Assembly: GCA_947627215.1 (NCBI GenBank)
Contig: CANQVD010000018.1
Coordinates: 6,250-70,249, forward strand
Direction: 5' to 3'
Length of the DNA: 64,000 bases
Origin: an uncultured Eisenbergiella sp.
GTDB lineage: Bacteria > Bacillota > Clostridia > Lachnospirales > Lachnospiraceae
A program made the translations under genes and the position numbers. Of the stretch, positions 8,329 to 53,772 are shown in pieces. The notes under the pieces were generated by a model. The model was not told the DNA's origin and did not search any database. It saw only the letters and a list, made by a program, of their open reading frames with translations. Position 1 is the stretch's first letter, and every line of letters starts with the position of its first letter.

Positions 8329-8558
8329 CCCGATAGATACCTGCCTTTCCCGGTTGCCTCTCCCTGCGGTTCCAATATGGTACATTCCTGATATGCAGCG
8401 CTGTGAAAATCCCGCATCCCTTCCCGGGATCCGCGCGGATCCGGCGGAAACTGCGGAACATAATTGAAGTATAACATAAAAAATCCTTGCATGCCACCAT
8501 AAGTTCCTGTATAGTGAAAACATGCAAACGAAATATTCAAAAGGAAGGAATCTGCACC

Positions 8559-8888
8559 ATGAGTAAAAAATATGATGAAGAAGACGAGGAAATGACCGTC
8601 GATCTGGAACTGGACGACGGCACCAACGTGACCTGCGCCGTCATCACCATTCTGGAAGTGGAAGGAAAGGATTACATCGTGCTCATGCCCCTGGACGAAA
8701 ACGGGGAGAACGACGACGGCGAGGTCTGGTTCTACCGGTATTCCGAGAACCCGGACGATCCCGAGGAGGAACCCGAACTGGGCTATATCGACGACGATGA
8801 GGAGTACGAGAAAGTGGAGGACGCCTTCGACGAATATCTGGACAACGCCGAATTCGACGAGCTGATCGGCGAGGATGGCGACGACTGA
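8559..8888 (+). CDS. DUF1292-domain acidic protein
   Basis: Highly acidic 109 aa, 'GKDYIVLMP'; RBS AAGGAAGG. Confidence 0.8.
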   Translation: MSKKYDEEDEEMTVDLELDDGTNVTCAVITILEVEGKDYIVLMPLDENGENDDGEVWFYRYSENPDDPEEEPELGYIDDDEEYEKVEDAFDEYLDNAEFDELIGEDGDD

Positions 8889-8899
8889 AAAAGCATTTC

Positions 8900-8947
8900 A
8901 AAACGGACTGCCCCGGGATACCGCTTCCCGGAGCAGTCCGTTTTTTT
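8900..8947. terminator. Bidirectional intrinsic terminator
   Basis: AAAACGGACTGC...GCAGTCCGTTTTTTT between convergent genes. Confidence 0.85.
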
Positions 8948-9069
8948 GAGTAAAAATACTTCTCCGTCCACACAGAGCAACGGCGCACACAAATCCTGCC
9001 GCAGTCGCTGCGCTGCAAAAAACTTTCTCCGCCCTTGCAGAGCCGCGGCAGGCTAATGGTCCGGCATGC

Positions 9070-11085
9070 TCAGTACCGGTACGGCTCCCGCCAGCCGCAG
9101 TCGGAAAGGAAGCGCGACGCAAATCCCGGCTCCGCCCGGGTGCCGCCCACCCAGCTAAGATAAAGCCGCTCCTTCGCCCGGGTCATGCCCACATAGAACA
9201 TCCGGCGCTCTTCCTCCAGTTCCTTTCCCGTCAGGCTCTTTTTGTGCGGCACGATCCCCTCATTGCAGTCGGGCAGAAACACAATATCGAATTCCAGCCC
9301 CTTGGAGCCGTGCATGGTGGTCAGACACACCGCGTCGGGATCCGTTTCCGAATCTTTTTTTGAAGCCTCTGCCAGAGACTGCTCATACCGCTCGATGTGC
9401 TCCTTCAAAAGCGCCACGGTAGGGAAACCACGCACGCTGTCCTGGAAAAAATCGGCGGCCTCTGCCGCTTCCCGATACTGCTCCTCCCGCATTTCCTTTT
9501 TCATCCAGCCGTCATAACCGATGCCCTTTCTGACATAATTCACCGCCGCATACAGATCCATCCCCGCCATGCGCCCGATATCCGCCTGCAGCTTTGTCAG
9601 GATCGGCGTCATATAGGGCTTGTCCCGATATGCGGAAAACAGAAGCGGGAAGGAGACCTGCGTCTGCGTCACCGCCTGCCGGGACAGATACCGGCAGGGT
9701 CTGTTCATGATCCGGAAGAACAGATCCCGCTCCCGCCTGACCATGGCGAATTCCAGATAAGCCAGCAGGTCCCTGCACACCGGCTGCGAATAGGGACTTT
9801 TCAGCTTTTCCCGCATGACGAAGGGCACCCGCAGCGCGCCCAGCGCCTCCGCCAGCAGGGCCGCATCGGAATTAGTGCGGAAAATGGCCGCGATGGACGG
9901 GATGTCTGCTGTCTGCCGGAACCTCTGCATCATCCACGCCAGCGCCCTGGCCTGCTGCCGCCTGTCCGTAAAAGCGCATAGCTGCACGGAGCCATCCCGC
10001 GAGAAGGAAGTCCATGCTGGCGGACGCTCCCGCTTTTTCCCGATTGCACCTCTGGAAAATGCCGCGGCCAGGGAACGGCCGCCCATAAGTCCCTGATCTC
10101 CCGGCGCACTCAGATATTCCGTCATTTCCCGCTGTACGCTGTCCGGATCCGCCTCGAATTTCCAGGCCGTCCCTTCCGGCTTTCCCGCCGTGATCTGCTT
10201 GGCAAAACGCTCCTTATTGGCAGCGATCAGCTTCCCGGCCCGCTCCACAATGCCGGGACGGCTCCGGTAATTGGCGGACAGACTGATCTGAGCAGCAGCC
10301 GGAAAGTCCGCGGCGAACTGCCGCATGATGGAAGGATCGGAACCGCGGAACCCGTAAATGGCCTGATCGTCGTCTCCCACCACAAAGAGATTCTGTGTTT
10401 CTCCCGCCAGGAGCTTCATCACCGCATACTGCGTCTCATTGATGTCCTGAAACTCGTCTACCAGCAGATAGGAAAAACGCTGCTGCCACTCCTTCAGCAC
10501 GGCGGGCCTTGTCAGGAACAGATGCCGCACCGCCGCGGCGAAATCGTCCAGGTCCAGCTTCCCCATTTCCGAGAGCATCCTCTGAAAGCCCAGGAACAGC
10601 TTCCGGAATACTTCCGGCTCCAGGCAGGCGCTCTGAAATCCCTCCGGGATGCTTCCCCTGTTTTTGAGAAAACCGATCTCGGAAAGCAGGCTTTCTTCCC
10701 AGTCCTCCTGCGCCGGAAATTCGCCCTGCATGCTCTGAAGCAGCGTGCGCAGATATTCCCGCTTTTCGCGTTCGGTGACGATACAGTTGGATTCGTAATG
10801 ACAGGTATTTTTTAAAATCTGAAAAAAGACGGCATGAAATGTGCCGAAGGTGACCGGATGGTACACGCCCTCCATCCGGGCGAAGAAACGGTCCCGCATC
10901 TGCCGGGCAGCCGCTCTGGTGAAGGTGATCACAAGAATGTTGGACGGATCCACATGGTGGATCTCGATCAGATACCGCACCCTCTCTACGGTAGTAAAGG
11001 TTTTTCCGGAACCGGGACCGGCCAGGATCAGCGCCGGTCCCGCGTTCCAGACGATCGCTTTATTCTGTTGTTCGTTTCCCTGCAA
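9070..11085 (-). CDS. ATP-dependent DNA helicase, UvrD/PcrA/Rep family
   Basis: Walker A 'AGPGSGKT', 'DEFQD', 'GDDDQAIYGFRG', 'TMHGSKGLEF', 'EERRMFYVGMTRAK'. Confidence 0.93.
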   Translation of the reverse strand: MQGNEQQNKAIVWNAGPALILAGPGSGKTFTTVERVRYLIEIHHVDPSNILVITFTRAAARQMRDRFFARMEGVYHPVTFGTFHAVFFQILKNTCHYESNCIVTEREKREYLRTLLQSMQGEFPAQEDWEESLLSEIGFLKNRGSIPEGFQSACLEPEVFRKLFLGFQRMLSEMGKLDLDDFAAAVRHLFLTRPAVLKEWQQRFSYLLVDEFQDINETQYAVMKLLAGETQNLFVVGDDDQAIYGFRGSDPSIMRQFAADFPAAAQISLSANYRSRPGIVERAGKLIAANKERFAKQITAGKPEGTAWKFEADPDSVQREMTEYLSAPGDQGLMGGRSLAAAFSRGAIGKKRERPPAWTSFSRDGSVQLCAFTDRRQQARALAWMMQRFRQTADIPSIAAIFRTNSDAALLAEALGALRVPFVMREKLKSPYSQPVCRDLLAYLEFAMVRRERDLFFRIMNRPCRYLSRQAVTQTQVSFPLLFSAYRDKPYMTPILTKLQADIGRMAGMDLYAAVNYVRKGIGYDGWMKKEMREEQYREAAEAADFFQDSVRGFPTVALLKEHIERYEQSLAEASKKDSETDPDAVCLTTMHGSKGLEFDIVFLPDCNEGIVPHKKSLTGKELEEERRMFYVGMTRAKERLYLSWVGGTRAEPGFASRFLSDCGWREPYRY

Positions 11086-34223: not shown

Positions 34224-36395
34224 CTACAGATTATCGTGTTCGAGACGCTTAATCACTTCGTTCTGCAGAACAGGCGCCAGATCCACGAAATAATCGCTGT
34301 AGCCCGCGATCCGCACGAGGAGCGTCCGGTACTTCTCCGGATGCTTCTGCGCGTCGAGAAGCGTTTCCTGATCGACCACATTGAACTGCATCTCAAAGTT
34401 CCCGTTTCTCATGAATTCCCGGACAAATTCCCGAACCGCGCCAAACCCGTCCCGCATCATCGACCTGCTGAAACGAAAATTGGTCGCTATGCCGCCGATG
34501 CCGTACATCTGATCGATCTTGGAAACGGAGCGCATGAGCGCCGTCGGCCCGTTCTTATCCATCCCCTGAACCGCGCCGAGACATTCGGACAGCGCCTCCG
34601 CCTGCCGTCTGCCGTCCGGCGTGGCGGCACACTGTTCGCCGTAAACGCCGTGCATGATCCACGCGAAATAGCTCGGATGGAAGGTACCGCCGATGCTCGT
34701 GCGAAACAGCTTCAGCTCATCCCGGATATAGTTGAACAGATCGCTGCCGATCGCATCGACCTCGTCGATGTCGTTGCCGAATTTCGGGCATTTGTTGAGC
34801 AGGAACGCGCGCAGCCTTCCCTCCTCCTCAAAATTATCCCGCATCGCGTCCGCGATCTCCCGAAGCGTGACGATCTTATCCTCATAAACGCATTTTCGGA
34901 TCGCTGCTATGGAATCGATCAGATTGATGAAGCCCGGGAAGCAGGGATAAATGAAGTTGTACCGTGCTCCGCCCGCCCCGGAATCCTTTCCGAGGGCAAG
35001 ACAGTCATTGAGGAAGCACGAGGCAAAGGGCGACGCACAATACTTTTCGTTATAGAGGCAGCAATCCTGAATTTCCATCAGCTCGCCCTTGATGATATTG
35101 TCGATGGTCTCCTTTGCCTTCGCGTAAAAGCTGTCAAACGTATCATAGCTGTCAATGTCCGATTCCACGTCGTGCAGCAGTCTGAAATCGTTTCCGAAGA
35201 TCTTTTTGCCGTCATTTAAGATGTACTCCAATCCCTTGTTCAGATTGATATACGGCGTCGCGACCCGGATGTTCGATGCGGCGATGGGCGTGATCTCGAC
35301 GCACGTGCTGTGAATATAGTAGCAGGCATCCTCGTATCTGACGCCGGCATCCATGAGGCCCCTGATGACGACATCGTCATTGAAGAGGGCCGGACGCGTA
35401 TAGCCCTGACGGTTCATTTCCAGGCACAGGTCCAGCAAATCCTCCGGGATCGCTTCATTATAGCAGACGGAAACGGAAGGGTTCACAAGCCCCGTCGTCC
35501 CGATCGCCCTGACAAACATGTACGAAAGCTCATTCCAGTTCGGTTTCCCGTTCCTGTCCCGTCCGCCGACCATGATCGAGGCCGGCCAGGAGCCGTACAG
35601 CATGTTATGCTTGAAATAGAGATCCTCGATCAGACTCATCACGGTATCGTCGTCGATTCTCCCGCAGGCCTTATCCCGGACATAATAGGGATACAGATAA
35701 TTATCCGGCCTGCCGGTAAGGGACGTATCGCCGGAGATCGCCTGCAGCAGGAATTCGACAAACCAGACGGACTGCAGCGCTTCAAAAAAAGTGGTCGCAG
35801 GGGCCGCCGGGACGACCGCCATGGCCGCCGCGATCCGCTCCAGCTCCGCCTTTCTCTCCGGATCGGACGTCTCCGCAGCTTTTCTCTCCGCCTCAGCCCT
35901 GTACCTTTCCGCAAACCGCACCGCCGCCAGAAGCTCCGTCCGGCACGACCTGTAAAAGCTCCTTTTCGCGGCGCATGCGGGATCGGAAAAGACAATGGCC
36001 TTTTCATAGCCTTCGATCTCCTTCAAAACGCCGTTGATCCCTTTTTGGAGCAGCTTTTCATAATCGATCACCCGATGCCCGGTGGAGTTGGAAGCCCTTG
36101 CGTTCAGCGCGCCGACGCCCTCCAGCCTGATGCGCATCTCTTTCAGCTCCGCCTCCATCTCCGGCGTATACTGCTCCTCCAGGCAGAACCTTCCCGCCAG
36201 AAGATCATCGTCGTCGATACAGGCGGGAAAATGATCCATCTGATATGCTGTGATGTTCGCCTTCGCCTCGTTCTGGAAGCGCACGTCCTTATACAGCAGA
36301 TATGCCTTATCCGCGTAATACTCGGCGCATGGGACACAGTTTTTCCTGTTGAAGATATGATCCCTGATCCGTTGTTTTCTCTCCTCGCTCAGCAT
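34224..36395 (-). CDS. Glycyl radical enzyme (PFL-like superfamily), function unknown
   Basis: Gly loop 'LVRIAGYS', Cys loop 'STCVEI', 'TPDGR', 'QFNVV'; 723 aa. Confidence 0.9.
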   Translation of the reverse strand: MLSEERKQRIRDHIFNRKNCVPCAEYYADKAYLLYKDVRFQNEAKANITAYQMDHFPACIDDDDLLAGRFCLEEQYTPEMEAELKEMRIRLEGVGALNARASNSTGHRVIDYEKLLQKGINGVLKEIEGYEKAIVFSDPACAAKRSFYRSCRTELLAAVRFAERYRAEAERKAAETSDPERKAELERIAAAMAVVPAAPATTFFEALQSVWFVEFLLQAISGDTSLTGRPDNYLYPYYVRDKACGRIDDDTVMSLIEDLYFKHNMLYGSWPASIMVGGRDRNGKPNWNELSYMFVRAIGTTGLVNPSVSVCYNEAIPEDLLDLCLEMNRQGYTRPALFNDDVVIRGLMDAGVRYEDACYYIHSTCVEITPIAASNIRVATPYINLNKGLEYILNDGKKIFGNDFRLLHDVESDIDSYDTFDSFYAKAKETIDNIIKGELMEIQDCCLYNEKYCASPFASCFLNDCLALGKDSGAGGARYNFIYPCFPGFINLIDSIAAIRKCVYEDKIVTLREIADAMRDNFEEEGRLRAFLLNKCPKFGNDIDEVDAIGSDLFNYIRDELKLFRTSIGGTFHPSYFAWIMHGVYGEQCAATPDGRRQAEALSECLGAVQGMDKNGPTALMRSVSKIDQMYGIGGIATNFRFSRSMMRDGFGAVREFVREFMRNGNFEMQFNVVDQETLLDAQKHPEKYRTLLVRIAGYSDYFVDLAPVLQNEVIKRLEHDNL

Positions 36396-36475
36396 AGTCC
36401 TCTTCTCCTTCCAAATGGATCCGCTCTCCGGCTGTCCGATCTCCGGCCGCCCGCAGATTCATCCTCCCATAAAAC

Positions 36476-37327
36476 CTATCGCAATAACTTTTCCAATTCG
36501 GCAATATCCGCGTCGGGAAGATCCTTCGCCTGAAACTCCCTGTTCAGGCTCTCGTATTTTCCGACACAGATGCCATGGAACGCAAGCAGCCCATATTTGA
36601 CATCGGTGTCCAGCGACGAGACAAAATCCCGAATCCTGAGAATCTCCTCCGGGGTATCGTTAAATCCCGGAATGACGGGCGTGCGGATCACGAGCCGCTT
36701 CTTCTGCCGTGCCAGCCTCGCGATATTCGCAAGAATCCTCTCGTTTCCGGCCCCCGTCGCTTCCCGGTGCTTCCCGGAGTCCATCGTCTTGATATCGCAG
36801 ATGAAGCAGTCGCAGAGATCCTCTATCGCTTCGAAATTTTCCCACGGAACGCAGGCCGCCGTTTCAACGGCCGTCGATATTCCCTCTTCCCTGCATCGCC
36901 TCATCACCTCCGCCACGAACTGCGGCTGCAGAAGCGGCTCGCCGCCGGAAAAAGTGACCCCTCCGCCGGAGCGCCGGAAGATTTCCCTGTCCTTCCTCAG
37001 CTTCCCGAACAGCTCTTCGGCCGAAATGTCATACCCCGCGGCGACCCTCGCTTCACTCCAGCAGACGTCGACGCACCTGCCGCATTTGATACACCGATCC
37101 GTGAAAAGGGCCGTCGTCCTCCCGTCTCCCGCAGGACATACCTTCGCGCATTCGCCGCATCGGATGCACTTGTGCGGAAAGAACTGCATCGACCGTTCGC
37201 GGTCGTGAGATTCCGGATTGTGGCACCAGTAACAGCGCAGATTGCAGCCCTTCATGAAAACCACTGTGCGCAGCCCGTCTCCGTCGTGGATCGAAAAGGG
37301 CTGGATATTGAACACTCTTCCCAGCAT
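36476..37327 (-). CDS. Glycyl radical activating enzyme (radical SAM with ferredoxin insert)
   Basis: 'GCNLRCYWCHNPES', two CxxCxxCxxxC motifs, 'TFSGGEP'. Confidence 0.93.
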   Translation of the reverse strand: MLGRVFNIQPFSIHDGDGLRTVVFMKGCNLRCYWCHNPESHDRERSMQFFPHKCIRCGECAKVCPAGDGRTTALFTDRCIKCGRCVDVCWSEARVAAGYDISAEELFGKLRKDREIFRRSGGGVTFSGGEPLLQPQFVAEVMRRCREEGISTAVETAACVPWENFEAIEDLCDCFICDIKTMDSGKHREATGAGNERILANIARLARQKKRLVIRTPVIPGFNDTPEEILRIRDFVSSLDTDVKYGLLAFHGICVGKYESLNREFQAKDLPDADIAELEKLLR

Positions 37328-37421
37328 ATTTCCCCCTTTCCTGCTGTGTCACCATTTTAGCATGCGCAAAAATCCCGGGCAAGAAAAATCGATGCGGATT
37401 TCATTCCGCTCCCTGTATCCA

Positions 37422-37450
37422 TTGACTTTGTTAACAAAAAATGTTAAAAT
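37422..37450 (+). promoter_or_regulatory. Sigma-A promoter of LacI with a palindrome in the spacer
   Basis: TTGACT-17-TAAAAT with TG; TTTGTTAACAAA at 37427-37438. Confidence 0.7.
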
Positions 37451-37481: not shown

Positions 37482-38513
37482 ATGACAAAGGTCACCATGC
37501 AGGACATCGCCGATGCTGTCGGCACCTCGCGCATCACCGTCTGGAAAGCGTTCAATCACAAAAGCGGCGTATCGGAGACCACACGCCTGCAGATCCTGCG
37601 CACCGCCGCCGATATGGGCTACCAGAAGCTGCCGTCCGATATTTTCGAGGAGGTATCGTCGCTGCACCACAAAACGGCGGCCCTCATCGTCTCCAGGCCC
37701 GAGACCTCCATCTTCTGGACAAACATCATTCACGAGATCGCCAAGGAATTTTCCCGGCATGACACCGATCTGATCTATACCTACGTTCCCCACATCTACG
37801 AAGACGGCTATACCCTGCCCGCCACCCTGCACGAGGGCGGCGTCAGCGGCTGCATCATGCTGAACGTCTACGACAGGCATATCCTGCGGCTGATAAACCG
37901 CCTTCCCATCCCAAAGGTATTCCTGGATACCGCGGCGGACACGCCTCCATCCGGGCTGCAGGGGGATCTGATCCTGCTGGAAGGAAAGGATACTCTGTGC
38001 GCCCTGACGGATTACGTCATCCGCCACGGCTATACCCGGCTGGGGTTCATCGGGGACATCCATTACGCCCGGACCAACGCCATGCGCTATCACGGATTTC
38101 TGGAGGCCATGCAGGAAAACGGGCTCACCGTCGATCCTGGCTGCTGCCTCTGCACCCCTTTCGGAGCCGATACCTACGAAGAACAGATCGCGGCATTCCT
38201 GGACGGCCTGTCCAGTCTCCCCCAGGGCTTCATCTGCGTCAGCGATTATGTCGCCTCTGTCACACGTTCCTGCCTTTTAAGCCGCGGTCTGCGGATCCCG
38301 GAGGACATCATCCTGACCGGCTATGACGGCAGCACGGAACAGAACAACGCCCAGCTCTGCGCCACCGTCAACGTGAATACGGCCGCACTGGGACAGCGCC
38401 TCGCCATGCAACTCCTCTACCGCATCGAAAATCCCCACGCCTCCCGGGAAACGGTTTTCATCGAATCTCCAATCGTCTACCCCACGCCCTGTCCCTCACG
38501 CACGGACGGGTAA
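37482..38513 (+). CDS. LacI-family regulator (divergent from the GRE operon)
   Basis: HTH 'VTMQDIADAVGTSRITVWKAFN', 'LTGYDG'. Confidence 0.9.
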   Translation: MTKVTMQDIADAVGTSRITVWKAFNHKSGVSETTRLQILRTAADMGYQKLPSDIFEEVSSLHHKTAALIVSRPETSIFWTNIIHEIAKEFSRHDTDLIYTYVPHIYEDGYTLPATLHEGGVSGCIMLNVYDRHILRLINRLPIPKVFLDTAADTPPSGLQGDLILLEGKDTLCALTDYVIRHGYTRLGFIGDIHYARTNAMRYHGFLEAMQENGLTVDPGCCLCTPFGADTYEEQIAAFLDGLSSLPQGFICVSDYVASVTRSCLLSRGLRIPEDIILTGYDGSTEQNNAQLCATVNVNTAALGQRLAMQLLYRIENPHASRETVFIESPIVYPTPCPSRTDG

Positions 38514-38648: not shown

Positions 38649-40346
38649 TCAGTCGATCTTCTTGGTCACGCCGCGGATCTCCAGATACTTGTCCAGATTC
38701 AGGCCGTCGAAGCCGTCGCAGTAAGCCTGCCATACGGCATCGTCGTCCACATCCTGCTGGCCTGCGATGAACAGAGCCTGCTGCTGCGTGAAGTAATCCT
38801 TGATGGAGGTCGCATACTCGGAGTAGATCTCCACATCGTCCAGATCGACCCAGAAGGAATCGATGATGTTCTTGGTCAGATAAGGCTCATAGTACTCCTG
38901 CAGCGCAGCCTTCTCATCGTACAGCGGATGATCCTCCTTGAACTTGAAGCCCAGAGGCATGAACTTGGGCAGCGCCTGAGGCCACAGATTGCTCCAGCCG
39001 TACTTGTTCTGATCTTCCTCGGACATCGTGGAGCTGTCCACGACATAATAATCGTTGACAATGCCGTCCGCCGTCGCCGCGAACGCGGTGGGATCGTCGC
39101 CCTCCTGACGTACCATGACGCCGATGGGGCCCTTGCTGATGGAGATGCCGTTTTCCAGATTGAACACGGTATCGAACCAGCGAACGATGATCTCGGGATG
39201 CTCTGCGTTGTCGGTGATGACAGCCTGCGTCCTGTAAACGGAATTGCCGGTGGTATCTCTCAGCCAGATGCCGCCGTTGTCCGCGTTCAGCACGGGCAGG
39301 AAGTCAAACTCGCCCTTTTCCTCGGTGATCTCCAGACCGGAGAACTCCTGAGAGCCGTAGGCGATGGAGCAGCCGTACAGGTCGCGGTTTCCTTTGCCTT
39401 CCCAGGTAGCGGAATCCTGCGTGGAGATCTCGGTGTCGATCAGGCCTTTTTCATACAGCTTGTTGAACCAGCTTAAGAACTGTCTGTAACCGTCGCTCTC
39501 GGCCGCCCAGGCGGTCTCGCCGTCCTCGGTGACGGTGAAGCCCACGTTGTTCATCGGCACGCCAAAATAACCGGCCATGGCTTCCAGATGCTTGTTGTTG
39601 GGGTCAGTGGAGAACGGGATCTCATCGTTGGGGTCGCCGTTTCCGTTGGCGTCCTGATCCTTGAAGGCCTGCAGGACAGCCTCAAACTCGTCCGTGGTGG
39701 TAGGCATATCCATCCCTACGTTCTCCAGCCAGCGGGTGTTGATGAAGGGGGTGTAACCCACCGTCGTGTCGTCCACGACATAAGGGATCGAGTAAATATG
39801 TCCGTCGGGAGCGGTCATCTTCTCCCGCACGCCGGGCAGATCCAGAACCGCGGAAATGTTGGGCGCGTACTGCGCGAACAGATCCTCCAGCGGGATAAAG
39901 ATCCCCTGATCCACGCCGTAGGTCAGGATCATGTTGTCGGACAGCGTCCAGCCGCCGATCACATCCGCATAGTCGCCGGAGTTCAGATCCAGGTTCAGCC
40001 TCTCGGTAGCGCTCTCATAAGGGAAATACTTCAGATCGATATCCACATTGGTCTGCTCCTTCAGAGCGTCCAGCGTCACGAACTCGCCGGTGGAGCTGGA
40101 ATCGTCCACGAAGATGGAGAAGGTATAATCCCCCTCATCCACGATCGGAAGCCCTTCGGCGTACATGATGCCGTTCACCTTACCGTCCGCATCCACTTCC
40201 GCGGGAGCGGCTTCCTCGGTCTTGCTGTCCGAAGAAGAGCTGTCGGAACTGCTGGAGCTGCTGGAGCTGCCGGAACTTCCGCAGCCCGCCAGTGCAGTCA
40301 CGACCATCACGGCCGTCAGCAATACTGCTACTAACTTTTTCTTCAT
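38649..40346 (-). CDS. Oligosaccharide ABC solute-binding lipoprotein (LplA-like)
   Basis: Lipobox 'LAGC', Ser-rich linker, 'APDGHIYSIP', 'DANGNGDPNDEIP'. Confidence 0.88.
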   Translation of the reverse strand: MKKKLVAVLLTAVMVVTALAGCGSSGSSSSSSSSDSSSSDSKTEEAAPAEVDADGKVNGIMYAEGLPIVDEGDYTFSIFVDDSSSTGEFVTLDALKEQTNVDIDLKYFPYESATERLNLDLNSGDYADVIGGWTLSDNMILTYGVDQGIFIPLEDLFAQYAPNISAVLDLPGVREKMTAPDGHIYSIPYVVDDTTVGYTPFINTRWLENVGMDMPTTTDEFEAVLQAFKDQDANGNGDPNDEIPFSTDPNNKHLEAMAGYFGVPMNNVGFTVTEDGETAWAAESDGYRQFLSWFNKLYEKGLIDTEISTQDSATWEGKGNRDLYGCSIAYGSQEFSGLEITEEKGEFDFLPVLNADNGGIWLRDTTGNSVYRTQAVITDNAEHPEIIVRWFDTVFNLENGISISKGPIGVMVRQEGDDPTAFAATADGIVNDYYVVDSSTMSEEDQNKYGWSNLWPQALPKFMPLGFKFKEDHPLYDEKAALQEYYEPYLTKNIIDSFWVDLDDVEIYSEYATSIKDYFTQQQALFIAGQQDVDDDAVWQAYCDGFDGLNLDKYLEIRGVTKKID

Positions 40347-40412
40347 TCTTTCATCTCCTTTTCTTTTTTTATATCAAACGGCCCCTTCAGCCGCATTGAT
40401 ACCGAAAACGGA

Positions 40413-41342
40413 TCAGCCCTTGACGGAACCGATCATGACGCCCTTGACGAAGTGCTTCTGAATGAACGGATACAGCACCAGTACGGGCACGCTGCTGATG
40501 ATGATCAGGGAGTACTTCATGACCTCGATCAGCTCCTTCTGCGCGTTCATCGCCGCTCTGGCCTCCGCCGTAACGGCGGTCTGGGACAGCGCCGCCTCGT
40601 TGGTGATCAGGATCCTTCGCAGGACCAACTGCAGCGGGAACTTCTGCGAATCGGACAGATAGATCAGGGCGGAGAAGTAGGAGTTCCAGTGGCCTACGCC
40701 GTAGTACAGCACCATGATAGCCGTGATGGCGCCGGACAGGGGCAGCGCGATCTGGAAGAAGAACTTGCCCTGGGTACAGCCGTCGATCTCCGCGGCCTCA
40801 TAGAGCTCCTCGGAAATATTGGACTTGAAGAAGGTCCTCGCCACGATCATATTGTAAACACTCAGGCATCCGGGCAGGATCAGCGCCCACATGGTGTTGA
40901 GCAGGTGGAAGCTTCTGACGACCAGGTAGGTAGGGATCAGGCCGCCGCCGAAGAACATCGTGATCACGTAAAAGATGGTGACGATCTTCTTGCCGGAGAA
41001 CTTATCCCGGGACAGCGCATACGCGGTGGGCAGCGTCACGGCCAGGTTCACCAGCACGCCGCAGACCGTGTATAAAATGGAATTCAGGAAGCTTCGTACG
41101 ATGGAATCGTCCTTGAACACCTCCGCGTAGCCCTTCAGGGTGAAGCCCACGGGCAGCCACAGCACTTTGCCGCCGGACACCGCCGCCGGATCGCTGAAGG
41201 AGGAAATGATGACCCACCACAGCGGATAGGCCACGATGATCAGGATCAGCGTCAGGACGATAAACAGGATCGTATCGAAAATCACGTCTTCCTTACAGCG
41301 CTTGATCTTTTTGGGCTGAACGACTGCATCATTCTTTTTCAT
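40413..41342 (-). CDS. ABC permease (LplC-like)
   Basis: 'EAAEIDG', 'YPFIQKHFVKGVMIGSVKG'. Confidence 0.92.
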   Translation of the reverse strand: MKKNDAVVQPKKIKRCKEDVIFDTILFIVLTLILIIVAYPLWWVIISSFSDPAAVSGGKVLWLPVGFTLKGYAEVFKDDSIVRSFLNSILYTVCGVLVNLAVTLPTAYALSRDKFSGKKIVTIFYVITMFFGGGLIPTYLVVRSFHLLNTMWALILPGCLSVYNMIVARTFFKSNISEELYEAAEIDGCTQGKFFFQIALPLSGAITAIMVLYYGVGHWNSYFSALIYLSDSQKFPLQLVLRRILITNEAALSQTAVTAEARAAMNAQKELIEVMKYSLIIISSVPVLVLYPFIQKHFVKGVMIGSVKG

Positions 41343-41359
41343 GATTTTCCCTCCTTCCC

Positions 41360-42307
41360 TTAGAACAGGCTGTTGCCGGACAGCTTATCCGAAACCGTAT
41401 TGACGATGATCAGCATTACCATGTTCACCAGCGTGTTGAACAGGCCGATGGCAGAGGAATAGGACATGTTGTTGTCGATCAGACCGACCTTATACACGTA
41501 GGTGGAGATGATCTCGGATACGGAAAGGTTCAGGTCGTTCTGCAGCGCGTATGCCTTTTCAAAGCCGATGGAGAGGATGCTGCCGCAGTTCATGATCAGC
41601 AGGATCGTCGCCGTCGGGAGGATGGACGGAAGGTCTATGTAGCGGATCAACTGGAACTTGGTGGCGCCGTCGCACTTGGCCGCCTCATGCAGCTCCGGGC
41701 TGATGCCGGACAGCGCGGCAAAGTAGATGACGGAACTCCAGCCCATGCCCTGCCAGACGCCGGACCAGACGTACAGATGTCTCCAGTACTCCTTCTTCGC
41801 CATGAAGTTGACCGCTTCGCCGCCGAACATCTTGATCACGTTGTTGATAATGCCGACGCTGGGCGAAAGGAACAGGATCAGCATACCGCACATGACGATG
41901 GTGGAAATGAAGTTGGGCGCATAGGTGACGGTCTGGATCACCTTGCGGTATTTCGCATGACGGAAGGAATTCAGCATCAGCGCCAGGACGATCGGGATCG
42001 GGAAGGAAACGATCAGGCTGTACAGGCTTAAGATCAGCGTATTCGAGATCGTCTGACCGAAATACGGCGATTCGAAGAAGCGGACGAAGTAACGCATGCC
42101 GACCCATTCACTGCCCCAGATACCGGCCCTCGCGTTGAATTTGCGGAACGCGATCTGCACGCCGTACATGGGAATGTAGCTGAAGATGAACGTCAGCACA
42201 ATGCCCGGAATGCAGAACATCCACAGGGACCAGTCTCTTTTGAGAAGCTGCATGAAGGTGTACTTCTTCGGCTTGATGGTTCCTGCGCCTTTGTTTTTTG
42301 CTTTCAT
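41360..42307 (-). CDS. ABC permease (LplB-like)
   Basis: 'YIPMYGVQIAF', 'EAAKCDGA', 'ISTYVYKVG'. Confidence 0.92.
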   Translation of the reverse strand: MKAKNKGAGTIKPKKYTFMQLLKRDWSLWMFCIPGIVLTFIFSYIPMYGVQIAFRKFNARAGIWGSEWVGMRYFVRFFESPYFGQTISNTLILSLYSLIVSFPIPIVLALMLNSFRHAKYRKVIQTVTYAPNFISTIVMCGMLILFLSPSVGIINNVIKMFGGEAVNFMAKKEYWRHLYVWSGVWQGMGWSSVIYFAALSGISPELHEAAKCDGATKFQLIRYIDLPSILPTATILLIMNCGSILSIGFEKAYALQNDLNLSVSEIISTYVYKVGLIDNNMSYSSAIGLFNTLVNMVMLIIVNTVSDKLSGNSLF

Positions 42308-42580
42308 AAGAATCCCTCCTATCTTTTTGTCTGCACAGCCCCATGTGCAGCAGTTAATATTAGGTTAACATAGGTATGCTCCCCTATGTTTATAACCATA
42401 CCACAAGTTCTCTACCAATGAAAGACTTTTTTTCAAATTATTCATACTTTTTTTTCAAAAAAATTATATTCTCTTAAAAGTGTATGGCAAAATCACAAAA
42501 ACGGAGACCTCTTTTCGTCGAAGTCCCCGTTTTCCTTTCATGACTTTATAAAAAGATACTTGTATTAATATTTGTTAACA

Positions 42581-44041
42581 TCATCTTTGCAGGCAGAATA
42601 CCCGGCCGATGGGAGCCTTTTCGGCGCGCTTCCCGCAGGGCCTTCCGGCGCGGACCGTAAGGCCGCCCTGCCCCTTTATGAAGGGGAGCTTTTCTCCGCT
42701 GTCCAGCGCAGTGACCGCTCCGACCGCTCCCTCGTAAGGGATCCATACCTCTTCCTCCACCGCGCAGTCCTCCCGCGGGAAGGTCTGGATGGCGTATACG
42801 GTATCCTCCTTTTTCGTGAAGGCGATGCCGTCCTTTTTGTAAGGGGCGCACACGCGGGTGCCGTAGATGGCATCCCCGTAAACGGAGAGCCACTCGCCCA
42901 TGCCCAGCAGACTTTTCACCGCGCCCTTCGGCAGGCACCCGTTGGGCTGCGGGCCCACGTTGATGGCCAGGTTGCCGCCTTTGGCCACGATATCCGCCAG
43001 CAGACAGATCACCTCCCTGGGGCTCTTGTAGCTGTCCTCATAGGCGAAGGAGAAAGAAGTTCCCAGCGTGATGCAGCTTTCCCAGGGGATGGAAAGGGGC
43101 TTCTCCGGCACGCACTGCTCCGGCGTCACATAGTTCTCATAGGGGCCGCCCACCGTCCGGTCGGCGCACAGCAGGCCCGGCTGGTATTTGCGCAGCCGCT
43201 CGATGACCTCGCCCAGCCGGATGTCCTGACCGTTTCTTTCGCACACCCAGCCCGCGTCGAACCACATGCCGTCCAGATGGCCGTACCTGGTGCCCAGCTC
43301 CATGATCTGATTCTGGGTGAACGTCACGAACCGTTCCCACTCCTCCGGATTCTCCTTCGGATCGTAGGAAGGGCCCCGGTTCTGATAGGTTCCCTTTTCG
43401 CCCGCTTCCTTCCAATAGCTGTCCACATGCCAGTCCGCTTTGGAAAAATAGGGGATGATCCCCAGCCCCCTCTTGCGGAACGACTCGAACAGATGCGCGC
43501 AGATATCCGCGTACCGGTTCGCCGAAAACGGGCAGTCCGGCGCCGTGACCTTGTAGTCCGAATACTGACTGTCCCACATGCAGAAGCCGTCGTGATGCTT
43601 GGTGGTGAAGAGCAGATATCGGGTTCCCGCCGTTTTGGCGATGTCCGCCCACTTTTCCGGTTCAAAGCGGGCCGGATTGAAGGTTTTATTCAGGGCGAAA
43701 TACTGTTTTTTCAGTTCCTCTCCCGTGATCTCCCAGTCGATTCCGCGCCGGGACCACACGGCGTCGGCGTCCGAAAGCGCCCAGGATTCCACGATGCCCC
43801 ACTGGCTGTAGGGGCCCCAGTGCATCATCAGCCCCAGCTTCTGGTCCCGGAACCATTCCAGCTTTTTGAGCACCTTCGGATCCTCGGGCCACACGTACCG
43901 GTCCTCCCGGCTATAGTTATGCACGCCGTCCTGTACGGCCTCTTCCTTTTCCTTTTTTTCCTCTTCCCCGTCCACAGGCATTTCCGCCGCGGGCAGAGCG
44001 TCCTTCTTTTCTTCTCCCACGATGTCTTTCCTTTCTCTCAC
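42581..44041 (-). CDS. GH29 alpha-L-fucosidase family protein
   Basis: 'KLGLMMHWG', 'TTKHHDGF', nucleophile 'WFDAGW'; start uncertain (GTG 44041 or ATG 43981). Confidence 0.88.
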   Translation of the reverse strand: MRERKDIVGEEKKDALPAAEMPVDGEEEKKEKEEAVQDGVHNYSREDRYVWPEDPKVLKKLEWFRDQKLGLMMHWGPYSQWGIVESWALSDADAVWSRRGIDWEITGEELKKQYFALNKTFNPARFEPEKWADIAKTAGTRYLLFTTKHHDGFCMWDSQYSDYKVTAPDCPFSANRYADICAHLFESFRKRGLGIIPYFSKADWHVDSYWKEAGEKGTYQNRGPSYDPKENPEEWERFVTFTQNQIMELGTRYGHLDGMWFDAGWVCERNGQDIRLGEVIERLRKYQPGLLCADRTVGGPYENYVTPEQCVPEKPLSIPWESCITLGTSFSFAYEDSYKSPREVICLLADIVAKGGNLAINVGPQPNGCLPKGAVKSLLGMGEWLSVYGDAIYGTRVCAPYKKDGIAFTKKEDTVYAIQTFPREDCAVEEEVWIPYEGAVGAVTALDSGEKLPFIKGQGGLTVRAGRPCGKRAEKAPIGRVFCLQR

Positions 44042-52608: not shown

Positions 52609-53772
52609 TCAAATATATGTCCCGCTGGTGTCCGCATAGATCTGGGCTTCCTTCTTCACCACGGTGGAATTTCTGATCTTCTCCTGCAAAAGCGCGTAGA
52701 AACGATCATCCGGGAAGTTCTTCACATCCACGGTCTCTCCTGTCCAGGCGCTCAGATGGATCGAATTGGAGATCGTCAGTCCGTTTATGCCCTCTTCCCC
52801 GGGCGCCAGAAGCTTCGTTCCGTTCAAAACAGCGGAAGCGAAATTGTTCAGGATACCCACATGCTGCGCGCCGCCGGAGCCGTCCACGGGGACCGTACAG
52901 TTCCAGCATTCGGGCGAGGCGAACGGCACCGTATTGGTCCTGTTGAACTCCCGCTCCGATATCACGTTGCGGCGGAACAGGATCTGTCCGTTTTCAACCA
53001 CCACTCTGCCCATATCGCAGGCGATCTCCAGGCGGTTCGTGCCGGGCGCTTCTCCGGTGGACGTAATATACTCTCCGGTGGTCCCGCTGTCATATTCCAT
53101 GAACGCCATCACATCGTCTTCCACTTCGATATTATAATATTTCCCGAAATACGCCCTGGCGAAGATCCGATCCGGCATTCCGAACATCCACTGCCACAGA
53201 TCGAGCTGATGCGGATTCTGATTGATCAGCGCGCCGCCGCCCTCGGTCTTCCAGGCAGAACGCCAGGTACTGCTGTCATGATACGCCTGGGGCCGATACC
53301 AGTCTGTGATGATCCAGGTGATCCTTTTGATATGTCCGAGCTCCCCACGGGCGACCATGTCCCGGACCTTCTGGTAAACAGGATTCGTTCTCTGATTATA
53401 CATAATGCCGAACAGCTTTCCGGAAGCGGCCGCAGCCTCGTTCATCTCCCTGACCTGACGCGTATAAACGCCCGCGGGCTTCTCCGTAATCACATGAAGC
53501 CCATGGCGGAACGCCTCTATCGCAAGAGACGGATGATCATAGTGATAAACAGCGATGAGAACTACGTCGCACAGTCCGCTCTCAAACAGCGCCGCGGCAT
53601 GATCGAACACCGGAATCTGCGGGTAAACGCTCCGCAGCGCCTCCCGTCTGGCAGGGGATATATCGCAGACCGCTCCCACTTTCATCGCCGGCACTTTGCC
53701 CTCCATCACATTCCTCACATGGGAAGTCCCCATATTGCCGTAGCCGATGATGCCGATTCGTAATTTGTCCAT
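52609..53772 (-). CDS. Gfo/Idh/MocA-family oxidoreductase
   Basis: Rossmann 'GIIGYGNMG', 'EKPAG', 'GGGALINQNPHQLD'. Confidence 0.92.
   Translation of the reverse strand: MDKLRIGIIGYGNMGTSHVRNVMEGKVPAMKVGAVCDISPARREALRSVYPQIPVFDHAAALFESGLCDVVLIAVYHYDHPSLAIEAFRHGLHVITEKPAGVYTRQVREMNEAAAASGKLFGIMYNQRTNPVYQKVRDMVARGELGHIKRITWIITDWYRPQAYHDSSTWRSAWKTEGGGALINQNPHQLDLWQWMFGMPDRIFARAYFGKYYNIEVEDDVMAFMEYDSGTTGEYITSTGEAPGTNRLEIACDMGRVVVENGQILFRRNVISEREFNRTNTVPFASPECWNCTVPVDGSGGAQHVGILNNFASAVLNGTKLLAPGEEGINGLTISNSIHLSAWTGETVDVKNFPDDRFYALLQEKIRNSTVVKKEAQIYADTSGTYI

What the first reader, a model, noticed from the sequence alone, without database searches (positions are those of the whole stretch)
34224..37327. 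Unassigned compact glycyl radical enzyme with its activase beside a glycan-import locus
Seen: Gly loop RIAGYS and Cys loop STCVEI in a 723-aa protein, with a ferredoxin-type activase. Established: PFL has a CC motif, while eliminases such as CutC, HypD and glycerol/propanediol dehydratases have GCVE-type loops and are usually ~790-850 aa. This enzyme keeps the Cys-X-Glu of eliminases with a different context and a short N-terminus. No microcompartment, aldehyde dehydrogenase or kinase genes lie beside it. Inference: new radical chemistry on a sugar or sugar derivative released by the adjacent locus.
Basis: partly seen in the sequence, partly recalled or inferred. Interest (0 to 1): 0.72.

Follow-up and report, generated by a model that had tools for sequence, protein, structure and literature searches.

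The report
Uncharacterised compact sugar-linked glycyl radical enzyme
This is an intact oxygen-sensitive radical enzyme and its activating partner from a widespread, unusually short branch of the glycyl radical family that nobody has characterised; it most likely breaks a carbon-oxygen bond in a sugar-derived compound, but its substrate is still unknown.

Summary
A 723-aa glycyl radical enzyme (GRE; RIAGYS, STCVEI) and a 283-aa ferredoxin-type activase lie at 34224-37327 (-), divergent from a LacI regulator and beside an ABC importer and glycosidase locus.

The GRE falls below every curated NCBIfam cut-off. It is 24-31 % identical to every characterised or solved GRE I compared. In a tree it sits in a monophyletic "HSTCVEITP" family of compact enzymes, outside HypD, CutC, PflD and YbiW. 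It keeps the Gly/Cys/Glu residues and the His that acts as acid in C-O-cleaving GREs. It loses the Gly before the Cys and the Asp of diol dehydratases. The genome already has a canonical microcompartment diol dehydratase elsewhere.

Across the family, about half of the lineages place the pair in operons with glycosidases or sugar-metabolic genes. The rest hold it alone among housekeeping genes. A homologue of the P2B11 glucuronide 3-dehydrogenase heads the window's glycosidase operon, and its relative sits directly upstream of the GRE in two related genomes.

Best reading: a new C-O lyase (dehydratase or isomerase) acting on a free, possibly acidic, sugar derivative. This scan has flagged the same STCVE family at least seven times on other DNA. 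Verdict: new variant of a known kind, a good experimental target, substrate unproven.

The parts
34224..36395 (-). Compact glycyl radical enzyme, 723 aa (P0001). Gly698 in RIAGYS; Cys365 and Glu367 in HSTCVEITP; His107.
   Evidence: Translation; Pfam and NCBIfam; AF2 model with pLDDT 86.6 and pTM 0.89; Foldseek TM 0.87-0.89 to GD, PD and CutC; tree; active-site columns.
36476..37327 (-). GRE-activating radical SAM enzyme, 283 aa (P0002), with two auxiliary ferredoxin-type clusters. It lies 80 bp upstream of the GRE.
   Evidence: TIGR02494 332 bits against a cut-off of 174; Radical_SAM, Fer4_12 and Fer4.
37354..37382 (-). Candidate sigma-70 promoter for activase-GRE (TTGCCC-17-TAAAAT). An imperfect palindrome at 37355-37370 overlaps its -10.
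   Evidence: Consensus scan and inverted-repeat scan. These are pattern matches only.
37422..37450 (+). Candidate lacI promoter (TTGACT-17-TAAAAT) with the perfect palindrome TTTGTTAACAAA (37427-37438) in its spacer, a candidate operator.
   Evidence: The only near-copy elsewhere that is not a plain A/T run is at 42571-42582 (2 mismatches), so a shared regulon is not shown.
37482..38513 (+). LacI-family regulator, 343 aa, divergent from activase-GRE and convergent with the ABC operon.
   Evidence: Pfam LacI, Peripla_BP_1 and Peripla_BP_3; start codon and RBS read.
38649..42307 (-). ABC sugar importer: SBP 38649-40346 and permeases 40413-41342 and 41360-42307. This is context; a functional link to the GRE is inferred only.
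   Evidence: Pfam SBP_bac_8 and BPD_transp_1; promoter and terminator patterns at 42463-42534.
52609..53772 (-). Gfo/Idh/MocA oxidoreductase, first gene of the glycosidase operon. It is a homologue of the P2B11 glucuronide 3-dehydrogenase and a possible pathway partner of the GRE.
   Evidence: Pfam; PDB 8TDI 325 bits, E 6e-96, full length. It is 44 % identical to the GFO 93 bp upstream of the GRE in L012 and to the one in L011. The L012 GFO has the same best PDB hit.

Best explanation
The two genes encode a working glycyl radical enzyme system of an uncharacterised compact family, defined by the motifs HSTCVEITP and VA[TS]PY.N. Shown: the fold, the motifs and the family placement. Inferred: the activase uses SAM and its [4Fe-4S] clusters to abstract a hydrogen from Gly698. 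The glycyl radical then makes a thiyl radical on Cys365, which abstracts a hydrogen from a hydroxyl-bearing carbon of the substrate. Glu367 takes the hydroxyl proton and His107 protonates the oxygen on the neighbouring carbon, so a C-O bond breaks. The hydrogen is then returned from Cys365. The outcome is either a dehydration to a deoxy-keto sugar (as in glycerol, propanediol or hydroxyproline dehydratases) or an ether or ring opening (as in YbiW/PflD). The substrate is most likely a small, unphosphorylated, carbohydrate-derived molecule. Expression is probably controlled by the divergent LacI-type sugar sensor. The polar, Arg-containing pocket specific to this sub-family (Arg108, Asp223, Trp270, His573, Thr638, Arg641) hints at a sugar acid or keto-sugar, for instance a product of the 3-keto-glycoside route. 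So do the recurrent neighbours UxaE, UxuA, GH2 and a glucuronide-3-dehydrogenase-like oxidoreductase. That last step is the weakest part of the argument.
For: The system is intact and conserved. Homologues of the same length at 47-67 % identity are listed among the best 120 of 1225 hits. Gly698, Cys365, Glu367 and His107 are invariant in 26 tier-1 and 24 tier-2 sequences. His107 aligns with GD His164, YbiW His165, PflD His156 and HypD His161, and the 2026 review names that His as the acid and the CXE Glu as the base. CutC has Tyr-Asp at this site, and the review's Arg/Gln sulfonate anchors of the C-S lyases were not aligned here. The AF2 model is confident and its best structural matches are GD, PD and CutC at TM 0.87-0.89. 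Operon mates in the family include GH2, GH38, GH43, GH78-like, GH92, GH106-like, GH116-like, GH127-like, SASA esterases, DUF6259, Gfo/Idh/MocA, xylose-isomerase-type TIM barrels, UxuA, UxaE (three loci from two lineages), AraA plus Dak kinase, and DHDPS plus class II aldolase plus FGGY kinase. Regulators next to the pair are LacI, AraC or IclR types. The window GFO and the GRE-adjacent GFO of L012 both hit the P2B11 glucuronide 3-dehydrogenase best. L011's GFO was linked by similarity only.
Against: No biochemical data exist for any member. No single partner gene other than the activase is conserved. In several lineages the pair, or the GRE alone, lies among ribosomal, cell-wall or other housekeeping genes. 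In the window the GRE is not in the glycosidase or ABC operons, and the putative operator has no convincing second copy. The Gly before the catalytic Cys, present in all reference GREs, is Thr here, with unknown consequence. Asp223 aligns with the amine-binding Asp of HypD, so an amino compound is not excluded. The sugar-acid idea rests on a few residues and on neighbours seen in a minority of loci.
Confidence: 0.6

Rival explanations
1. It is a ring-opening GRE isomerase like YbiW/PflD, but for unphosphorylated 1,5-anhydro-alditols or similar cyclic ethers. It would give a 1-deoxy-ketose that is then phosphorylated and split by an aldolase. This is a specific sub-case of C-O cleavage.
For: It has the same Cys-Glu-His set as YbiW and PflD. 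L091 has GRE-DHDPS-class II aldolase-FGGY kinase, and L090 has AraA-Dak kinase-AE-GRE. The Gfo/Idh/MocA family includes 1,5-anhydrofructose reductase, listed as a distant PDB hit.
Against: It lies outside the PflD and YbiW branches in the tree. It is only 28-29 % identical to them and scores 323 bits on NF007437 against 1109. Kinase plus aldolase is seen in one lineage and a Dak kinase in one more, and no PTS or F6P-aldolase context as in E. coli was seen in the neighbourhoods examined. The source of anhydro-alditols in N-glycan-type loci is unclear.
Confidence: 0.15
2. The activase-GRE pair is an autonomous two-gene unit acting on a non-carbohydrate metabolite, for example a hydroxy-amino acid or a cell-wall-derived compound. 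Its position beside the glycan locus would then be incidental.
For: In several lineages the GRE, with or without an adjacent activase, sits among housekeeping genes, or with only an IclR regulator. No partner is conserved. Asp223 aligns with HypD Asp279. The convergent neighbour is an LD-carboxypeptidase. An earlier scan note (e1-4884464) reached this view for a relative.
Against: About half of the lineages have glycosidase or sugar-metabolic operon mates, far more than the share of such genes expected in a genome (my estimate, not measured). The adjacent regulators are sugar-type. HypD's NF043068 scores 373 bits against 1100. Other HypD pocket residues are not kept.
Confidence: 0.15
3. It is a microcompartment-free 1,2-propanediol or glycerol dehydratase handling the diol made from fucose released by the two GH29 fucosidases.
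For: GD and PD are the best sequence and fold matches. His107 and the CXE motif are kept. GH29 genes are nearby in the window and in L006, L038 and L027.
Against: GD Asp447 is an invariant Ala379. The GD His281-Ser282 pair is Asp-Thr/Ile. The GD Tyr339 region is deleted. TIGR01774 scores 430 bits against 678. The genome already has a canonical 841-aa GRE with all GD/PD-type residues beside 7 BMC shell genes on contig C4. No aldehyde or alcohol dehydrogenase lies near the window gene.
Confidence: 0.07

Closest known systems
B12-independent glycerol dehydratase (C. butyricum, PDB 1R8W/1R9D) and GRE 1,2-propanediol dehydratases (5I2G, 9RCO)
   Same: Best sequence and fold matches (E about 1e-96; TM 0.88-0.89). 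Same ten-stranded barrel, Gly loop and Cys-x-Glu loop, and the same His at the acid position (GD His164 = His107). The activase is of the same ferredoxin-insert type.
   Different: Only 26-28 % identity. About 60 residues shorter, with 51 missing at the N-terminus. Thr instead of Gly before the Cys. GD Asp447 is Ala. The His281-Ser282 pair and the Tyr339 region are not kept. No microcompartment or downstream dehydrogenase. Below the TIGR01774 cut-off.
YbiW and PflD, GRE isomerases (C-O lyases of 1,5-anhydroglucitol-6-P and 1,5-anhydromannitol-6-P; PDB 8ID7, 8ID0, 8YJO)
   Same: The only characterised GREs acting on sugars. Same Cys-Glu-His set. The pathway logic (radical C-O cleavage, then aldolase) resembles the kinase and aldolase neighbours seen in L091.
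   Different: 28-29 % identity. Separate branches in the tree. NF007437 scores 323 bits against 1109. No PTS and no sugar-phosphate context here, so the substrate is probably not phosphorylated.
trans-4-hydroxy-L-proline dehydratase HypD (6VXC) and choline TMA-lyase CutC (5FAU)
   Same: Same eliminase class and CXE motif. Asp223 aligns with the HypD substrate Asp. Tyr382 aligns with CutC Tyr506.
   Different: NF043068 scores 373 against 1100 and TIGR04394 340 against 1050. The CutC Asp216 position is Arg108. The CutC Phe395 and Thr502 positions are Pro271 and Val378. Identity is 31-32 %.
P2B11 glucuronide 3-dehydrogenase cluster (PDB 8TDI; 3-keto-glycoside elimination pathway). This concerns the neighbouring oxidoreductase, not the GRE.
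   Same: The window's Gfo/Idh/MocA gene matches it over its full length (325 bits). A relative (262 bits) sits directly upstream of the GRE in L012.
   Different: The published cluster has two oxidoreductases and two TIM-barrel lyases and no GRE. In the window no TIM-barrel lyase turned up among the genes scanned with Pfam (22.8-53.8 kb), and the genome's one hit to my TIM-barrel queries lies on another contig, C25.

Membership tests
Glycyl radical enzyme superfamily (PFL-like) | C-terminal glycyl radical domain with the RVxG[FWY] motif | tested here: met
   RIAGYS; PF01228 95 bits. Gly698 is invariant in the family.
Glycyl radical enzyme superfamily (PFL-like) | Ten-stranded barrel fold with a Cys loop facing the Gly loop | tested here: met
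   AF2 pTM 0.89. Foldseek TM 0.87-0.89 to GD, PD, CutC and HypD. The position of the loops was not inspected because no coordinates were available.
Glycyl radical enzyme superfamily (PFL-like) | Cognate radical SAM activase | tested here: met
   Adjacent gene, TIGR02494 332 bits against 174. An activase-like gene adjoins the GRE in 45 of 89 loci, many of which are cut by contig ends.
GRE 1,2-eliminases and isomerases (PFL2 class) | Single Cys followed by x-Glu (CXE) | tested here: met
   C365-V-E367, invariant. The review states that CXE is retained in all eliminases and isomerases.
GRE 1,2-eliminases and isomerases (PFL2 class) | Reaches the curated subfamily score (TIGR01774) | tested here: not met
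   430 bits against a cut-off of 678. The genome's canonical C4 enzyme scores 804.
C-O cleaving GREs (GD, PD, HypD, YbiW, PflD) | His at the GD His164 position (acid for the leaving oxygen) | tested here: met
   His107 is invariant and aligned with H165, H156, H161 and H166 of the references.
Glycerol and propanediol dehydratases | GD-type pocket (His281-Ser282, Tyr339, Asp447; residue roles recalled from the structural papers) | tested here: not met
   Asp-Thr/Ile at 223-224, a deletion at the Tyr339 site, and invariant Ala379.
Glycerol and propanediol dehydratases | Microcompartment or 1,3-PD/aldehyde dehydrogenase context | tested here: not met
   No BMC genes in the window; all 7 are on contig C4. 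Neighbours were scanned with Pfam.
YbiW/PflD anhydro-sugar-phosphate isomerases | Equivalog score and clade membership | tested here: not met
   NF007437 323 bits against 1109. Outside both branches in the tree.
YbiW/PflD anhydro-sugar-phosphate isomerases | Phosphate-binding residues | not tested
   The primary paper was not in the searchable library, so the residues are unknown to me.
HypD | Equivalog score NF043068 | tested here: not met
   373 bits against 1100. True HypDs score 1160-1491.
CutC | Equivalog score TIGR04394 and Asp216 | tested here: not met
   340 bits against 1050. Arg108 stands at the Asp position.
Pyruvate formate-lyase | Adjacent Cys-Cys pair; TIGR01255 | tested here: not met
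   The loop is T-C-V-E. It scores 91 bits against 994.
Compact 'HSTCVEITP' GRE family (defined here, not curated) | [HN]STCVE[IL][TS]P and VA[TS]PY.N motifs, 700-750 aa, monophyly | tested here: met
   Motifs are invariant in 50 sequences. The clade has 83 rows with SH-aLRT 96. The window gene sits in tier 1 (43 rows, support 100), in a sub-clade of 14 (support 100).

The most novel reading that the evidence does not exclude
The family is the first set of glycyl radical enzymes that act on free, unphosphorylated sugars or sugar acids inside glycan-utilisation systems. It would perform a radical deoxygenation or ether cleavage that feeds, or is fed by, the recently found 3-keto-glycoside route. 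Together with the other compact paralogs (two of which sit in a polysaccharide biosynthesis cluster in this genome), it would mark a whole unexplored layer of radical carbohydrate chemistry in anaerobes.
Probability: 0.4. Interest if true: 0.8.

Novelty: new variant of a known kind. Interest (0 to 1): 0.6.

Why it matters
Every newly assigned GRE has so far revealed a new anaerobic reaction with ecological or medical weight, for example TMA, p-cresol, H2S and hydroxyproline metabolism, and 'anhydroglycolysis'. The 2026 review states that whole clades remain unannotated. This clade is one of them. It is compact, has a distinctive catalytic loop, occurs in at least 126 species genomes of gut, rumen and termite-gut anaerobes, and is repeatedly wired into glycan-degrading operons. 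Assigning its substrate would add a step to anaerobic carbohydrate catabolism. It could also explain how some sugars or sugar derivatives are used without oxygen. Two cultured carriers (Hydrogeniiclostridium mannosilyticum, Leadbettera azotonutricia) make the question directly testable.

Tried and rejected
1. Sequence clustering of neighbours in 80 loci found no conserved partner other than the activase. phmmer with 28 annotated query proteins confirmed this.
2. The shared-operator idea (TTTGTTAACAAA): there is one perfect copy. Of three 2-mismatch matches, two are A/T runs, and 1 of 100 shuffles gave as many. The idea is not supported as a regulon signal.
3. An apparent 982-aa 'fusion' in L031 is a spurious high-GC upstream frame. 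Long hits in the representative search are CutC-type or carry unidentified N-terminal extensions. No informative Rosetta-stone fusion was found in this family.
4. PDB searches of the unknown recurrent neighbours (c26, x626) found nothing. x278 gave only weak ferredoxin-like matches.
5. Five literature searches found no paper on this clade. The AARE paper offers no help on context.
6. The diol-dehydratase and PFL readings were rejected on residues, scores and the presence of canonical enzymes elsewhere in the genome.
8. Active-site geometry could not be inspected because the model's coordinates are not exposed. Pocket positions are inferred from alignment to residues documented for other GREs.
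9. One malformed Pfam call and one frame error were corrected and repeated.
Full report
**Observation.** The minus-strand ORF 34224-36395 encodes a 723-aa protein with the glycyl loop LLVRIAGYSDYF and the cysteine loop YYIHSTCVEITP. Pfam finds PFL-like (417 bits) and Gly_radical (95 bits). Eighty bases upstream, ORF 36476-37327 encodes a 283-aa radical SAM protein with a CNLRCYWC motif and two ferredoxin-type cysteine motifs. It scores 332 bits on the GRE-activase model TIGR02494, against a cut-off of 174.

**Not a member of any characterised family.**
- Against NCBIfam the enzyme stays far under every curated cut-off. The scores are PFL2/glycerol-dehydratase subfamily 430 vs 678, HypD 373 vs 1100, HpsG 365 vs 1000, HpfG 359 vs 1000, CutC 340 vs 1050, PflD-type 323 vs 1109, indoleacetate decarboxylase 280 vs 1100, and PFL 91 vs 994.
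- The best solved relatives are CutC, glycerol dehydratase and propanediol dehydratase at E about 1e-96.
- An AlphaFold2 model built on 26 family members is confident (pLDDT 86.6, pTM 0.89).
- Foldseek places the model equally close to GD, PD, CutC, HypD, HpyG/HpzG, PflD, YbiW, IslA and HpsG, at TM 0.84-0.89 and 23-28 % identity.
- BLASTP gives 31 % identity to a bona fide HypD, 32 % to CutC, 29 % to E. coli PflD and 28 % to YbiW.

**Tree.** I built a maximum-likelihood tree of 103 sequences, rooted on E. coli PflB.
- The enzyme belongs to a monophyletic family of 83 rows (SH-aLRT 96).
- The family splits into tier 1 (43 rows, support 100, 45-67 % identical to the window protein) and tier 2 (40 rows, support 92, 35-39 %).
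- The family lies within a larger clade of compact enzymes (91 rows, support 98).
- HypD, CutC, PflD and YbiW fall outside that clade.
- GD, PD and the C-S lyases were not in the tree. They are excluded by scores and residues only.
- The June 2026 review of the superfamily lists no enzyme of this kind and says that entire clades lack validation.

**Catalytic residues**.
- Gly698, Cys365 and Glu367 are invariant in both tiers.
- His107 is also invariant. It aligns with GD His164, HypD His161, PflD His156 and YbiW His165. According to the review, that His protonates the leaving oxygen while the CXE glutamate deprotonates the substrate hydroxyl.
- CutC has Tyr-Asp at this site, and the C-S lyases use Arg/Gln anchors. 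The retained set therefore argues for C-O cleavage.
- The family differs from all references in three ways. It has Thr364 where the references have Gly. It has invariant Ala379 where GD, PflD and the genome's canonical enzyme have Asp. It has a two-residue deletion at the GD Tyr339 / CutC Phe395 site.
- Tier 1 has a polar set at barrel positions that line the pocket in other GREs: Thr105, Arg108, Asp223, Ser/Thr225, Thr227, Trp270, His573, Thr638 and Arg641.
- Tier 2 has Met108, Gln/Gly223, Tyr/Phe225, Leu270, Trp377, Ile/Val573, Val638 and Lys641. The two tiers probably have different substrates.
- Arg108 occupies the CutC Asp216 position and Asp223 the HypD substrate-Asp position. The roles of these reference residues are recalled from the structural papers. 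PDB titles confirm that Y208, E491 and T502 of CutC were probed.

**Shortness.** The protein aligns to TIGR01774 from residue 98 to model position 149. It therefore lacks about 51 N-terminal residues and about 13 internal ones. Compactness is shared by the whole 91-row clade (675-760 aa).

**Size and spread.**
- A pattern scan of one genome per species found 126 loci. They come mostly from uncultured Clostridia of rabbit, ruminant, horse and chicken guts, termite-gut Treponema, and a few Chloroflexota and Armatimonadota.
- Cultured carriers are Hydrogeniiclostridium mannosilyticum (L030) and Leadbettera azotonutricia (P0117/L088).
- L001, labelled an uncultured Eisenbergiella from rabbit, is 98 % identical and syntenic.
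- A profile search of 1.8 billion representatives shows about six tier-1 clusters at 50 % identity. Roughly twenty further clusters carry the [HN]STCVE motif among the best 60 hits.
- In an even sample of 300 Clostridia genomes, only the window's genome has a tier-1 gene, and eight have tier-2-type genes. None of nine same-family genomes has either. These counts are floors. The gene is a patchy accessory trait.

**Context in the window.**
- Activase-GRE is divergent from a 343-aa LacI regulator (37482-38513).
- A perfect palindrome TTTGTTAACAAA lies in the spacer of the predicted lacI promoter. A second, imperfect palindrome overlaps the -10 of a predicted activase promoter.
- LacI is convergent with an ABC importer (38649-42307).
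- Upstream of the importer lies a co-oriented operon: Gfo/Idh/MocA, a GH38N-like gene, GH29, a transglutaminase-fold gene, GH18, CBM9 and GH29.
- The palindrome has no convincing second copy. The local link therefore rests on adjacency and on a sugar-type regulator.

**Context across the family.**
- Only the activase is conserved.
- Same-strand, closely spaced neighbours in tier 1 include the following:
  - GH106-like (L006, L038, L028)
  - GH78-like and two SASA esterases (L028)
  - GH116-like (L007)
  - DUF6259 (L013, L108)
  - GH38 (L019)
  - GH92 (L032)
  - GH127-like (L027)
  - GH43 (L036; L030 weakly)
  - GH2 (L088, L091, L108)
  - UxuA plus three xylose-isomerase-type TIM barrels (L008)
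  - UxaE directly downstream (L088, L089, L109)
  - AraA plus Dak kinase (L090)
  - DHDPS-type aldolase plus class II aldolase plus FGGY kinase plus AraC (L091)
  - URO-D family (L029, L108)
- By my count, about 15 of roughly 30 independent lineages have such mates.
- I also took twelve contexts chosen only for contig length. They represent ten lineages. Five have sugar genes in the operon, two have only an IclR regulator, and three have housekeeping neighbours.
- The association with carbohydrate genes is real but not obligatory. The glycosidase families vary, so the neighbours do not name the substrate.

**A specific lead.** The window's Gfo/Idh/MocA protein matches the P2B11 glucuronide 3-dehydrogenase (PDB 8TDI) over its full length (325 bits, E 6e-96). 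That enzyme starts the oxidation-elimination ('3-keto') route of glycoside cleavage in a Gram-positive gut bacterium and prefers glycosides with a negative charge at C6. The oxidoreductase 93 bp upstream of the GRE in L012, and its counterpart in L011, are 44 % identical to the window protein. These genomes lie in the same 14-row sub-clade. The L012 protein also has 8TDI as its best hit. Together with UxaE, UxuA, GH2, IclR and the Arg-containing pocket, this suggests an acidic or keto sugar as substrate. I rate this as a lead, not a finding.

**The genome as control.**
- The assembly holds seven PFL-like genes.
- Contig C4 carries an 841-aa enzyme above the TIGR01774 cut-off (804 bits). It has GD/PD-type His166, His283-Ser284, Cys438, Glu440 and His451-Asp452, and it lies next to seven BMC shell genes. 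The classical fucose/rhamnose-to-propanediol function is therefore already covered.
- C20 carries a true PFL.
- Four further compact paralogs reach no curated cut-off. Activase-like genes lie beside three of the four (C12, C48 and C19b); none was found next to the second C19 gene. One sits beside a GH51-like gene, with GH3 nearby. One sits with a PfkB kinase and ABC permeases. Two sit inside a Wzx/Wzy polysaccharide biosynthesis cluster.

**Mechanism and odds.**
- Most likely (0.6): a C-O-cleaving GRE acting on a small carbohydrate-derived molecule, through Gly698, Cys365, Glu367 and His107, giving a deoxy-keto product or a ring-opened isomer.
- The YbiW/PflD-like isomerase version is a sub-case (0.15 on its own).
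- A non-carbohydrate substrate with incidental placement is 0.15.
- A microcompartment-free diol dehydratase is 0.07.

**Earlier notes of this scan.** The same STCVE family and sister compact clades were flagged on other genomes at least seven times, with similar verdicts. One note judged the sugar neighbourhood incidental. My tallies give partial support to both views. These notes are not independent evidence.

**Limits.** The model's coordinates could not be inspected. GD, PD, IslA and HpsG sequences were not in the tree.

Noticed in passing
window 52609-53772 (-): The first gene of the glycosidase operon is a full-length homologue (325 bits) of the P2B11 glucuronide 3-dehydrogenase (PDB 8TDI), the starter enzyme of the non-Koshland 3-keto-glycoside cleavage route. 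Among the genes I scanned with Pfam (22.8-53.8 kb) no partner TIM-barrel lyase turned up.
   Followed up: partly
L106:5326-7353 and L106:15987-18020 (genome contig C19): Two compact GRE paralogs (675 and 677 aa; Cys loop SACWEP, Gly loop RVWGFSAYF) lie inside a polysaccharide biosynthesis cluster (Wzx-type flippase, Wzy_C, Acyl_transf_3). A GRE in a glycan biosynthesis locus is unusual.
   Followed up: partly
L105:7600-9687 (contig C12) and L107:9426-11468 (contig C48): Two more compact GRE-activase cassettes. One follows a GH51-like gene, with GH3 and a GtaA-type six-hairpin gene nearby. The other (no CXE motif, Gly loop RLYGFSEYF) is followed by a PfkB kinase and ABC permeases and faces a LacI-like gene.
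   Followed up: partly
L081 (contig C4:110087-123029): A canonical 841-aa GRE with a glycerol/propanediol-dehydratase-type pocket lies next to its activase and seven BMC shell genes. This is a classical GRE microcompartment locus.
   Followed up: partly
L082 (contig C20, about 6500-9469): The true pyruvate formate-lyase gene is split. A 680-aa body (TIGR01255, 1092 bits) ends early, and the glycyl radical domain (..TIRVSGYAVNF..) follows in another frame. This is a frameshift, an assembly error or a natural split.
   Followed up: partly
L090:1-17182: A battery of four GRE genes in a row: AraA, Dak kinase, activase, GRE (727 aa), an unknown 626-aa gene, GRE (755 aa), activase, GRE (755 aa), and an AraC-domain::GRE fusion. 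L110 likewise has activase-GRE(671)-IclR-activase-GRE(706).
   Followed up: no
L029:225-1352; L108:9328-10350; L088:2608-4277: URO-D family genes (the family includes corrinoid methyltransferases) recur directly beside the activase-GRE pair in three lineages. In L108 the gene is followed by a GlcNAc 2-epimerase-family gene.
   Followed up: no
window 42571-42582: TTTGTTAACATC, a 2-mismatch copy of the lacI-promoter palindrome, lies at the 3' end of the GH29 gene and upstream of the ABC operon's terminator and promoter. This is too weak to call an operator.
   Followed up: partly
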